A stretch of DNA of 64,000 nt, from the NCBI RefSeq assembly GCF_016026235.1, contig NZ_CP065613.1; one strand, 5' to 3'. How positions within the stretch are numbered: position 1 is the stretch's first letter; every line of letters starts with the position of its first letter. The position numbers were made by a program. Shown in pieces: positions 35,001 through 38,000 of this stretch. This DNA comes from Escherichia coli (GTDB taxonomy: Bacteria > Pseudomonadota > Gammaproteobacteria > Enterobacterales > Enterobacteriaceae).

Positions 35001-38000
35001 CAGCGCTTTTACGGCGTCAAATTCTGCCGGGCTGATATGAACTAATTGTTCAGTTTCGGCGTTAGTGAGCGGATCTTTTGGTTTTTTGTCGTTTTTAGCT
35101 TTCCCAAGATAATCCGCAATTTTTGCCGCCCATTCGATGGCTTTTTTCTCTTCGATGCCTTTCTCAATCAGGATAGTTGCCGCCTCACGCGCAATTCGCC
35201 CACTGCGAATACCAATATGGCCCGCCAGTGCCTGTTCAAAAAGTGCAGAAGTGCGCCACGCACGTTTCAGACTTTGTGAGGAAACGCGCAGACGCGTTGC
35301 ACCACCCAGTACCACAGTTTTTGGCGCACCAGTATCATCACGGTTAAGGTTGGCAGCAGGGTAAGCGGTTAACAAATGAAGCTGAATAAATGTTGTCATG
35401 AGATAGTCCTTTATTAATTTTGTTCGTTATCGGCGTCGCCAGCCTGGTAATATTCCAGTGCCCAGCGGATACGGATAAATTCGGTTGGCCGCTGCTGGCG
35501 GCGGTGATGATTGAGCAGGTCGTCGCTCTCCTGGCACCAGCGGAAAATATCTTCTGCCAAAGAGATAAGATTGACGGAACCGTTTAATAATTTGACCGCG
35601 CGACGTAACTGACGCAGTAAATCATCCGGCGTTTTTACTGCCGACAGGCGAGTAAAACGCCCCTCCGACATTACCGCCGCCAGCTGCGCGGCAAAAGGCT
35701 GCCGTTCATCAATGGCTTTTACATTGGCGCTAACTGCGGCGACCAGCGCCAGTGCGGTAAAACGCCACTCTTGTGCTTCAATTTTCCACAAAGTGTGGGT
35801 CTGCATCAGCAGAGAACGAAACCCTTCTGACAAGCAAACATCATTAACCGTTGTGCTACGCCGCAGACTGGCACGATTGCCGCGTTTAGCCTGCAACTCT
35901 TCGTGCCATTTACGCAGCGTGGCTTTGTGCTCCTCTTTTACAATACTCATTCAGCAGCCTCCTGCTTTTTCTCCCTGGCGGCGTTAGCATTTTGCTTCTC
36001 CGCTGATGTTGTAAAATATTTCTTGCGTGCGGTCATGACGCGTTCCAAATCAACGGGCTCATATGGATTGGTAAAGACACGATCGTCAAAATCCTGACGC
36101 GCGAATAACCACATTTCCTTTTGCCATTTACTGAGTAATTCGTCCGGATCCTGACCTTCTTCAATTTTGCGCACTAATCTCAGGAATCGATGCTGAGTTT
36201 TGTTCCAGAAGTCGATATCCACAAAACTAAAATCACCCCTTGCACCTTTTGGATCGGAGAACCATGCTTCTTTCAATGCACTCCGTAACAGACTTAGAAT
36301 CCGTGAAGCTGTTTGCGCAGCCAGCCGCAGCTTCGGTATCTGACCTTCTTTTTTATCGAGCAGCAGCGGGAAATGGTGTTCGTACCAACAGCGCGCTTTC
36401 ATGTTGTCGAAATCATAGCCAAATCCCCACAGGCCCACTTTTGCCTGCTTGAGACTGCTGGCATTGAAGAGTTTCACCACCAGCGCGGGAAGTTCCGTAT
36501 TGTTTTCTGATTTACCCGTTTCGATAAGGCCTAACCAGTCACGCCAGATTAAACCGCCCGGTTGTGGTTTAACGGAGTAAAACTCGCCACCCTCTTTAAG
36601 TGGTACACGGTAAGGCGTTAAGGGATGCTGCCACATGGCATAATTCGCACCGTAATTTTTGGTCGTCATCAGGCTCAGGAGCGCGTCGCTCTGCTCACCG
36701 CAAATATCGCAGTTGCCGACTGTCGTGGTATTAAAATCAATACGAATACGGCGAGGCATTCCCCAGTACGCCTGGAGTTTATTGACCTGCTCATCGGTTA
36801 CCACCGCACCGGCCAGTTCGCTGGTGCGCGTCGGGCCAAGCCAGGGGAAAACCAGATCGTCAAATTTTTTGGGTAGCGGTAAATCGGCTTCATCCTGCGG
36901 CATGACATTGATCCACAGTTTGCGCCACAAGGGAGTTTGTTGATTACCCTGATATTCCTGTAATTCAATCAGAGTGGTCATCGGCCCACCGCCGCGTAAA
37001 CCGGTGCGGTAGCCTTTGCCACCTGACGGCGCATTCAACTGTAGGGAGAACAGAGCTAACGCAGAACAATGTGGGCACAGGTATTCCGTTACACCACGCT
37101 TGATAAAGTGGTCTTTATTAAACTTCGTTGTTTGAGCGCCGGGAATCTCAGGCAGTAGCGAAGCGACCGGAACTTTATCTCCGGTGAGCGCCTCGAAATC
37201 CTGCATAAATGAAGGGGAATCTGGCCCAAACTGGAAAGCATGTTCTAATGACAGCAATGCTTCCCGTAGCTTTTCAGCTTCCAGTCCGTCTTCCCAGATA
37301 TCATCCCAACGACGATGATCTTTTGGCGCGAAGCTGGTTTGTAGTAGCCCCAGCAAAAACTGCCATACCGCACCCTGGAGATCTGCCCGCGGCGCAGAAA
37401 TATCGACAACATTTTCATCCGCCAGATCGACTGGCGCCAGTTTGCCTGTCGTTCCGTCTTTAAAACGAACGGGCAACCACGGGGTTGTCAGAAGTGAAAA
37501 CGAGTTCATACGCATCCTCTCGTAAAAAAGACCATCCCAGGTCGGTTGTCCATCTTTCCATCCTTTTCGGTGTATCAACTATTCAGAGAGTCCTGTCGCA
37601 GACATCTCAACCAACCTTGCCAATCAATCCTTCCGTAGCCGAATACCCGCAACTTTCGTCATCGTTGACTAAAATCACGTTTGCCATCTCCGGATCTTGT
37701 CGCTGTTCAATGCACCACAGCCTGAACGCCTCTCCCTCCAGTAAAGAAAACTCATCCCGATGTTTTTTCCACCAGCTTCGGCGCACTCTGACAACGCTCA
37801 TTTCCCATGCGTGAGCACCGGTGGCATAAGGCTTCACCACACCGTCAATACAGGTAGCCAGCCACAGGGAAACAGACTCCTCAGCCAGACGTGTCGACAG
37901 TTTTTCTGGGAGGTAATCGTTGATATTGGCGGCATAGCCGGGCCTGAAGTTCAGCACAAACTTTTTAGCCATTGCGCGATCACAGTAATATTTGCCCACT

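What the first reader, a model, noticed from the sequence alone, without database searches (positions are those of the whole stretch)
37510..37606. Short cse1-cas3 intergenic region and AT-rich cas3 upstream segment now abutting an IS
Only about 97 bp separate cas3 from cse1 (my recollection is that the K-12 variant has a much longer H-NS-silenced control region). The AT-rich 180 bp upstream of cas3 (40296..40473), likely holding its promoter and H-NS sites, is directly flanked by the IS end, so outward or read-through transcription from the IS could alter expression of the already frameshifted cas3.
Basis: inference. Interest (0 to 1): 0.3.

Follow-up and report, generated by a model that had tools for sequence, protein, structure and literature searches.

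The report
Ordinary cas3–cse1 spacer; IS-rearranged dead CRISPR locus

Summary
The cse1 start codon ends at 37509 and the cas3 stop codon begins at 37607 (minus strand), so the spacer is 97 bp. The 181 bp upstream of cas3 has 24% G+C and directly abuts an IS.

None of this is unusual. The spacer is 100% identical to that of an intact locus in strain A31. The same junction occurs in 2,430 of 5,426 complete E. coli genomes. The locus is the published cas-E1 variant.

The IS is a 1,294-bp ISEc60 (IS4 family). It inserted into the terminator hairpin of the neighbouring hok gene. A later recombination with a second, inverted ISEc60 copy at xanQ inverted about 138 kb, so cas3 now follows IS-xanQ'-xdhD. 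A sister genome that is 99.9% identical used the same IS to delete the whole CRISPR-cas locus.

cas3 has an 11-bp deletion and cas7 has a nonsense codon. Transcription could read through the IS into cas3 given its orientation. No evidence supports this, and it would have little consequence. Low interest; already known.

The parts
31315..31648 (-). CRISPR array: six 29-nt type I-E repeats with 61-nt periodicity. The leader lies at about 31649-31744.
31745..32038 (-). cas2, intact
32035..32958 (-). cas1, intact
32955..33605 (-). cas6e, intact
33587..34333 (-). cas5e, intact
34344..35399 (-). cas7e pseudogene: in-frame stop at codon 206 (34784-34782), with no indel relative to A31
35414..35950 (-). 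cse2/casB, intact. Only 87.6% identical to A31, so a mosaic allele.
35947..37509 (-). cse1/casA, intact, 520 aa
37510..37606 (-). 97-bp cas3-cse1 spacer, 47% G+C. It contains a T-run and Shine-Dalgarno (GAGAGG) block, invariant over about 37514-37538. No sigma-70-like promoter match and no significant structure.
37607..40295 (-). cas3 pseudogene. An 11-bp deletion at 39295/39296 separates the HD-domain ORF (39159-40295) from the helicase/C-terminal ORF (37607-39280). The cas3E1-R primer site is at 40195-40214.
40296..40476 (-). AT-rich (24% G+C) native cas3 upstream region of the E1 module. It is retained almost entirely (A31 has 193 bp between hok and cas3) and is the presumed cas3 promoter and H-NS target.
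40466..40476 (.). GGGTTTTACCC: one copy of the ISEc60 target duplication. It is the remaining half of the hok terminator hairpin. The other copy sits on the hok side in the sister genome.
40477..41770 (-). ISEc60 (IS4 family), 1,294 bp, 100% identical to copies in FDAARGOS_943. The transposase gene is at 41687-40497 and runs in the same direction as cas3. Its 3' end abuts the cas3 upstream region.
41771..41826 (-). xanQ 5' fragment (MSDINHAGSDLIFELEDRP) reading into the IS. It includes the xanQ-site target duplication GGGCGATCCT (41771-41780).
41966..41981 (-). xdhD terminator hairpin (GGCCGC-TTCG-GCGGCC followed by a T-rich tail)
41991..44861 (-). xdhD (956 aa), brought next to cas3 by the inversion

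Best explanation
Shown: the 97-bp cas3-cse1 spacer is the unaltered, standard linker of the cas-E1 variant of the E. coli type I-E system.

Inferred: the spacer carries little more than the cse1 ribosome-binding site. In E1 the AT-rich, H-NS-type control block lies upstream of cas3, not between cas3 and cse1 as in K-12. cas3 and the cse1-to-cas2 genes are therefore probably transcribed at least partly as one unit from 40296-40476.

Shown: the IS next to that block is an ISEc60. It inserted into the GGG-N5-CCC terminator hairpin of the adjacent hok gene, about 10 bp after the hok stop codon and 181 bp before the cas3 ATG.

Shown by comparison with a 99.9%-identical sister genome: this IS copy recombined with an inverted ISEc60 copy in the 5' end of xanQ. 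That inverted about 138 kb and placed xdhD-xanQ'-IS upstream of cas3. In the sister genome the same IS copy instead deleted everything from the cas3 upstream region to the last CRISPR repeat.

Shown: cas3 (11-bp deletion) and cas7 (nonsense codon) are inactive. The locus is a decaying remnant in an IS-expanded lineage, and any IS effect on cas3 transcription has no consequence for interference.
For: - The spacer is 100% identical to intact strain A31.
- A 241-nt probe across the spacer is found at full length in 2,430 of 5,426 complete E. coli genomes, and 97 bp is annotated in all five intact loci fetched.
- The cas3E1-R primer matches exactly (PMC3903273).
- K-12 has a 414-bp spacer with 29.5% G+C and 8 promoter-like matches. 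The 414 nt upstream of E1 cse1 have about 50% G+C and 0 matches. The pattern is reversed upstream of cas3: 24% G+C in E1 against 44% in K-12.
- Relatives of this Cse1 have cas3-cse1 spacings from -4 to 24 bp in most archaeal loci and one Lambdaproteobacteria MAG, 11 bp in Citrobacter and Phytobacter, and 89 bp in E. albertii, up to 862 bp.
- Spacer diversity (0.072) lies close to that of third codon positions (0.094-0.110). Only the T-run/Shine-Dalgarno block is invariant.
- IS identity, orientation and flanks.
- The sister genome shows hok|ISEc60|iap and xanQ'|ISEc60|xdhD. The window's left part matches its minus strand and the right part its plus strand.
- The target duplication GGGTAAAACCC is split between the two genomes.
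- Pseudogenes.
Against: - No transcript data exist for E1, so co-transcription of cas3 with cse1 is inferred from composition and spacing only.
- In S. Typhi the cse1 operon has its own LeuO/H-NS-controlled promoter (PMC8039139), although there cas3 is divergent with a 357-nt gap (PMC7712790).
- A weak or activator-dependent promoter in the 3' end of cas3 or in the spacer would escape a consensus scan.
- The reciprocal inversion junction (xanQ'|IS|hok) lies outside the window and was not seen.
- The diversity comparison rests on only six E. coli sequences.
Confidence: 0.85

Rival explanations
1. Transcription from or through the IS (from the transposase promoter, a promoter-like site near the IS 3' end, or the xanQ promoter now upstream) enters the cas3 upstream region and changes expression of cas3 and the downstream cas genes.
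For: The transposase gene and the xanQ 5' fragment run in the same direction as cas3. Only 20 bp separate the transposase stop codon from the IS end. The hok terminator hairpin that insulated cas3 is reduced from an 8-bp to a 5-bp stem. One 9/12 promoter-like match (TCTACA-18-GATAAT, 40536-40507) points at cas3.
Against: The number of promoter-like matches is at chance level: 8 found against 6.4 +/- 3.0 in shuffles. The full AT-rich block, presumed to be H-NS-silenced, is retained. IS4-family transposase genes are typically very weakly expressed (general knowledge). There are no expression data. cas3 and cas7 are pseudogenes, so no functional outcome for interference is possible.
Confidence: 0.12
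2. As in K-12, the 97-bp spacer together with the 3' end of cas3 holds an independent promoter for the cse1-to-cas2 operon, controlled by H-NS and LeuO. cas3 would then be a separate transcription unit.
For: Separate cas3 and cse1-operon units were reported for K-12 (Pul et al. 2010, as cited in PMC3737337) and for S. Typhi (PMC8039139). A small hairpin plus T6 run (GACC-UGGGAU-GGUC-UUUUUU) just before the cse1 Shine-Dalgarno sequence could attenuate cas3 read-through. Some relatives have 150-860-bp spacers.
Against: There are no sigma-70-like matches in the 414 nt upstream of cse1, against 8 in the K-12 spacer scored the same way. G+C is 44-60% throughout, so it is not an H-NS-type composition. 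The distal spacer evolves nearly as fast as synonymous sites. Close relatives have 11-bp or overlapping junctions. The spacer fold is not better than shuffles, z = 0.26.
Confidence: 0.3
3. The short spacer arose in this strain by deletion of a K-12-like control region.
For: Only the size difference from K-12.
Against: The spacer is identical in intact E1 loci and present in 45% of complete E. coli genomes. E. albertii has an 89-bp homologue. E1 and E2 are distinct gene sets (PMC3903273).
Confidence: 0.01

Closest known systems
[quoted passage not shown] 2014, mBio, PMC3903273)
   Same: Exact cas3E1-R primer site, the same gene order, an identical 97-bp cas3-cse1 spacer, the E1-specific AT-rich region upstream of cas3, and an ancestral hok/sok neighbour.
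   Different: Here cas3 and cas7 are pseudogenes. hok-cysHIJ has been replaced by ISEc60-xanQ'-xdhD through an inversion. The cas alleles are only about 95-96% identical to the best of 5,426 complete genomes.
K-12 (cas-E2) casA-cas3 intergenic region with Pcas, silenced by H-NS and relieved by LeuO (Pul et al. 2010 and Westra et al. 2010, as cited in PMC3737337)
   Same: The same position between cas3 and the first Cascade gene.
   Different: K-12 has 414 bp with 29.5% G+C and many promoter-like sites. Here there are 97 bp with 47% G+C and none. The AT-rich block sits upstream of cas3 instead.
Salmonella cas-STM (contiguous) and cas-STY (cas3 divergent, 357-nt gap) arrangements (PMC7712790; PMC8039139)
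   Same: The contiguous, co-oriented cas3-cse1 layout resembles cas-STM.
   Different: The S. Typhi (cas-STY) promoter data cannot be transferred to this locus. No Salmonella locus was retrieved here for direct alignment.
IS-mediated degradation of type I-E loci in Shigella and E. coli (Touchon and Rocha 2010, PMC2886076; Almendros 2014, Fig. 5)
   Same: Frameshift, nonsense mutation, IS insertion and IS-adjacent deletion of cas genes in an IS-rich, pseudogene-rich lineage.
   Different: The particular element (ISEc60) and the cas3|IS|xdhD inversion junction are not present in any of the 5,426 complete genomes searched.
IS elements inserted just downstream of chromosomal hok genes in K-12, and the IS231A GGG(N)5CCC target rule (both from my recollection: Pedersen and Gerdes 1999; Hallet et al. 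1994)
   Same: ISEc60 sits about 10 bp after the hok stop codon in a GGG-N5-CCC hairpin, with a 10-11-bp duplication. The same pattern is seen at hokE and at a plasmid site.
   Different: A different IS is involved. The target preference was seen at only about five sites and was not tested statistically.

Membership tests
E. coli type I-E CRISPR-Cas, cas-E1 variant | Variant-specific sequence at the 5' end of cas3 (primer cas3E1-R, TCGTCGCCCCCGTCTTTCTC) | tested here: met
   Exact match at 40195-40214, with 0 matches expected by chance (primer from PMC3903273).
E. coli type I-E CRISPR-Cas, cas-E1 variant | Gene order cas3-cse1-cse2-cas7-cas5-cas6e-cas1-cas2-leader-CRISPR, with 29-nt repeats, located between iap and cysH | tested here: met
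   All eight genes align with those of strain A31. There are six repeats. iap, cysD and cysN lie on one side. The cysH side has been displaced by the inversion.
E. coli type I-E CRISPR-Cas, cas-E1 variant | Associated E1-specific intergenic region and hok/sok system between cas3 and cysH | tested here: inconclusive
   The intergenic region is retained up to the hok terminator. hok itself is no longer adjacent, but it is adjacent to the same IS copy in the sister genome.
K-12-type casA-cas3 control region (Pcas, H-NS/LeuO) | An AT-rich intergenic region of about 400 bp between cas3 and casA carrying the promoter | tested here: not met
   97 bp, 47% G+C and 0 promoter-like matches, against 414 bp, 29.5% G+C and 8 matches in K-12.
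K-12-type casA-cas3 control region (Pcas, H-NS/LeuO) | H-NS and LeuO binding, and H-NS-dependent silencing | not testable with these tools
   Needs ChIP, footprinting or expression data.
ISEc60 (IS4 family) | DDE transposase, and near-identity to annotated ISEc60 copies | tested here: met
   PF01609, E = 1.8e-20. Identity is 99.6-100% to RefSeq-annotated ISEc60 elements.
ISEc60 (IS4 family) | Terminal inverted repeats and a matching target-site duplication | tested here: inconclusive
   The inverted repeats CTGAGGGATCCCCAGAAAA and CTGAGGAATCCCCAGAAAA are present. The flanks in the window differ (GGGTTTTACCC against GGGCGATCCT) because the copy is a recombinant. Each flank finds its partner in the sister genome.
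IS-borne outward promoter activating a neighbouring gene | An outward-directed promoter at the IS end abutting the gene, with transcripts crossing the junction | tested here: inconclusive
   One 9/12 consensus match at 40536-40507, at chance frequency. Transcripts cannot be tested here.

The most novel reading that the evidence does not exclude
In the E1 variant, the whole cas3-to-cas2 set may be one operon silenced from the AT-rich block upstream of cas3 and insulated by the hok terminator. ISEc60 appears to home to hok-type GGG-N5-CCC hairpins. By destroying that insulator it could have let upstream transcription de-repress the full system. The resulting cost, such as autoimmunity or toxicity, would then have selected for the cas3 and cas7 knock-outs in this lineage and for deletion of the whole locus in its sister.
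Probability: 0.06. Interest if true: 0.4.

Novelty: already known. Interest (0 to 1): 0.1.

Why it matters
This finding matters little in itself. It mainly warns against treating the K-12 cas3-casA control region as representative, because nearly half of complete E. coli genomes carry the E1 layout. In that layout the AT-rich block sits upstream of cas3, and the promoter architecture has not been mapped in the literature I could reach. The locus also gives a clean, reconstructable example of one IS copy producing two different outcomes in sister genomes: an inversion in one and a whole-locus deletion in the other.

Tried and rejected
- An Rfam scan of 31000-42200 at E <= 1 gave no matches, so no Sok or RNA-OUT-type RNA was detected.
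- The RNA fold of the spacer was no better than shuffles, z = 0.26.
- A search for a stand-alone CRISPR-repeat-like element in the spacer and in the cas3 upstream region scored within the shuffle range.
- The small hairpin plus T-run before the cse1 Shine-Dalgarno sequence is not supported by compensatory changes in Intestinirhabdus.
- The S. Typhi promoter-mapping paper (PMC3133143) is not held, and the 2017 transcription-unit paper was not found.
- The genome-contig scan with Cse1 retrieved no Salmonella locus, so no direct alignment with Salmonella was possible.
- A literature search for E1 or O157 transcription-start data found nothing relevant.
- A strain-specific deletion as the origin of the short spacer is rejected.
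- A simple IS insertion with matching target duplications is rejected because the flanks differ.

Full report
**Observation.**
The CRISPR-cas locus lies on the minus strand. The ORF list and alignment to the annotated locus of E. coli A31 place cse1 at 35947-37509 and cas3 at 37607-40295. The spacer is therefore 37510-37606, 97 bp. cas3 is 2,689 nt against 2,700 nt in A31. A single 11-bp deletion after nt 1000 (window 39295/39296) shifts the frame and gives a stop at codon 379. The two resulting ORFs carry the Cas3 HD domain and the Cas3 C-terminal domain respectively. The 181 bp upstream of the cas3 ATG (40296-40476) have 24% G+C, against 51.6% for the window. An insertion sequence begins at 40477.

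**The spacer is normal for this variant.**
- Across 321 nt centred on the spacer, the window differs from the intact A31 locus at one base, which lies in cas3. The 97 bp themselves are identical.
- A 241-nt probe spanning the spacer is found at at least 80% coverage in 2,430 of 5,426 complete E. coli genomes.
- Four hits taken from across the identity range, plus A31, all have an annotated 97-bp gap.
- The primer that Almendros et al. used to diagnose the cas-E1 variant matches exactly at 40195-40214 (PMC3903273). That paper defines E1 as the more prevalent variant and E2 as the K-12 variant. It links E1 with its own intergenic region and a hok/sok system next to cas3.
The contrast is a known difference between two gene sets, not a change in this strain.

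**What the spacer probably does.**
- The K-12 gap has 29.5% G+C, falling to 14-24% in its core, and gives 8 sigma-70-like matches in my scan.
- The 414 nt upstream of E1 cse1 have 44-60% G+C and give 0 matches.
- Upstream of cas3 the pattern is reversed: 24% G+C in E1 against 44% in K-12.
- Among relatives of this Cse1 found in species-representative genomes, the cas3-cse1 distance varies widely:

| Organisms | cas3-cse1 distance |
|---|---|
| Most Methanosarcinales-type archaeal loci; one Lambdaproteobacteria MAG | -4 to 24 bp (one Methanosarcina MAG: 122 bp) |
| Citrobacter youngae, Phytobacter ursingii | 11 bp |
| E. albertii and an Escherichia sp. | 89 bp |
| Other enterobacteria | 151, 176, about 500 and 862 bp |

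- In six diverse E. coli E1 sequences, spacer diversity is 0.072. That lies between first/second codon positions (0.022-0.043) and third positions (0.094-0.110). The invariant part is the T-run plus Shine-Dalgarno block next to the cse1 ATG.
- The spacer RNA does not fold better than shuffled sequence, z = 0.26. It has no Rfam match and no CRISPR-repeat-like element.
- My inference is that the spacer is mainly a linker with a ribosome-binding site, and that in E1 the AT-rich control block lies upstream of cas3, so cas3 and the Cascade genes are at least partly co-transcribed. This is inference, not demonstration.
- The S. Typhi data on a separate LeuO/H-NS-regulated cse1 promoter (PMC8039139) come from an arrangement in which cas3 is divergent and 357 nt away (PMC7712790). 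They do not transfer to this locus.

**The IS and its history.**
- The element at 40477-41770 is 1,294 bp long and 99.6-100% identical to RefSeq-annotated ISEc60 (IS4 family). It encodes a 396-aa DDE transposase on the minus strand, in the same direction as cas3.
- Full copies occur in only 14 of 5,426 complete genomes. One of these, FDAARGOS_943, has at least 38 matching places.
- That genome is 99.9% identical to the window on both sides of the cas locus.
- It has one ISEc60 in the 5' end of xanQ, with xdhD beyond it. It has another immediately after the hok gene that normally precedes cas3, and there the IS is followed directly by the terminal degenerate CRISPR repeat and iap. Window 31285-40476 (array, all cas genes and the cas3 upstream region) is absent from that genome.
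- The two copies are in inverted orientation in that genome. The window's left part matches its minus strand and the right part its plus strand.
- In the window the IS flanks do not match each other: GGGTTTTACCC on the cas3 side and GGGCGATCCT on the xdhD side. Each finds its partner in the sister genome, at the hok-side and xanQ-side flanks respectively.
- The simplest history has three steps:
  1. ISEc60 inserted between hok and cas3.
  2. In the window's lineage, recombination with the xanQ copy inverted about 138 kb.
  3. In the sister lineage, an IS-adjacent deletion removed the CRISPR-cas locus.
- No complete E. coli genome in the collection has the cas3|ISEc60|xdhD junction.

**Why the IS is at this site.**
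- The insertion point is inside the hok terminator hairpin, CGCGGGGG-UAAAAC-CCCCGCG. This is an 8-bp stem in A31 and is reduced to 5 bp in the window.
- Other ISEc60 copies sit in comparable GGG-N5-CCC hairpins. Two tandem copies lie between two hokE genes in strain RMDEC332, one lies at GGGATTTTCCC on a plasmid, and the xanQ site is also a small palindrome.
- The IS therefore seems to have been drawn by the hok hairpin, not by cas3.
- From memory, not tested here: IS231A uses a GGG(N)5CCC target, and K-12 hok loci carry IS elements just downstream of hok.

**Does the IS alter cas3 expression?**
- Read-through is allowed by the geometry. On the minus strand the order is xdhD, its terminator (41981-41966), the xanQ ribosome-binding site and first 19 codons (41826-41770), the IS with its transposase gene, 20 bp, the truncated hairpin, the AT-rich region and then cas3.
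- The only promoter-like site pointing out of the IS is a 9/12 match at 40536-40507. The region contains 8 such matches against 6.4 +/- 3.0 expected.
- The native AT-rich region is intact, and there are no expression data.
- cas3 is frameshifted and cas7 has a stop at codon 206, so no change in transcription could restore interference.

**Comparison with known work and verdict.**
The short spacer is the published E1 architecture (PMC3903273). IS insertions, frameshifts and deletions in type I-E loci of Shigella-like genomes are documented (PMC2886076; PMC3903273, Fig. 5). The finding is confirmed as an observation but is ordinary. Novelty: already known. Interest 0.1.

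Noticed in passing
window 34344-35399 (stop at 34784-34782): cas7e is also a pseudogene, through an in-frame nonsense codon at position 206 with no indel.
   Followed up: yes
window 40466-40476 and 41771-41780; L004 11040-11060; L043 2500-3830; L044 2500-5130: ISEc60 copies sit in short GGG-N5-CCC hairpins with 10-11-bp duplications. These include the terminators of hokX and hokE (two tandem IS copies between two hokE genes in strain RMDEC332) and a plasmid site. This suggests a target preference for hok-type terminator hairpins.
   Followed up: partly
window 31285-40476 compared with L004 (FDAARGOS_943, NZ_CP065615.1): A 99.9%-identical sister genome lacks the entire CRISPR-cas locus. 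The deletion runs precisely from the same ISEc60 copy to the terminal degenerate repeat. The window's lineage instead carries an inversion of about 138 kb between that copy and one in xanQ.
   Followed up: yes
window 41770-41826: The first 19 codons of xanQ (MSDINHAGSDLIFELEDRP), with their ribosome-binding site, read into the 5' end of the IS. xanQ is therefore disrupted, and its promoter region points through the IS towards cas3.
   Followed up: partly
window 20174-21202: rpoS appears split into two ORFs (191 aa and 146 aa). It is annotated as frameshifted in the sister genome, which also has frameshifted flhA, truncated hycC and many IS1, IS5 and ISEc60 copies. This fits a Shigella- or EIEC-like decaying genome.
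   Followed up: partly
window 35414-35950 and the cas genes generally: cse2 is only 87.6% identical to A31 (with a 3-nt indel), whereas cse1 is 98.7% and cas2 99.7%. No genome among the 5,426 exceeds about 96% identity over the cas3-cse1 stretch searched (35900-40477). The flanks are 98.6-99.9% identical. The cas-E1 allele is mosaic or divergent.
   Followed up: no
L027-L036, L039 (Methanosarcinales and Methanoperedenaceae contigs): Cse1 homologues with 36-40% identity occur in methanogen and ANME archaeal contigs. In most of these loci cas3 overlaps cse1 or lies within about 24 bp of it (one Methanosarcina MAG: 122 bp), which suggests inter-domain sharing of this type I-E lineage.
   Followed up: no
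L005 (JAIJJM010000114.1, labelled Collinsella sp. MAG): A 7-kb contig binned as Collinsella carries a cse1 96% identical to the E. coli E1 gene, with the same 97-bp spacer. It is almost certainly a mis-binned Escherichia contig.
   Followed up: no
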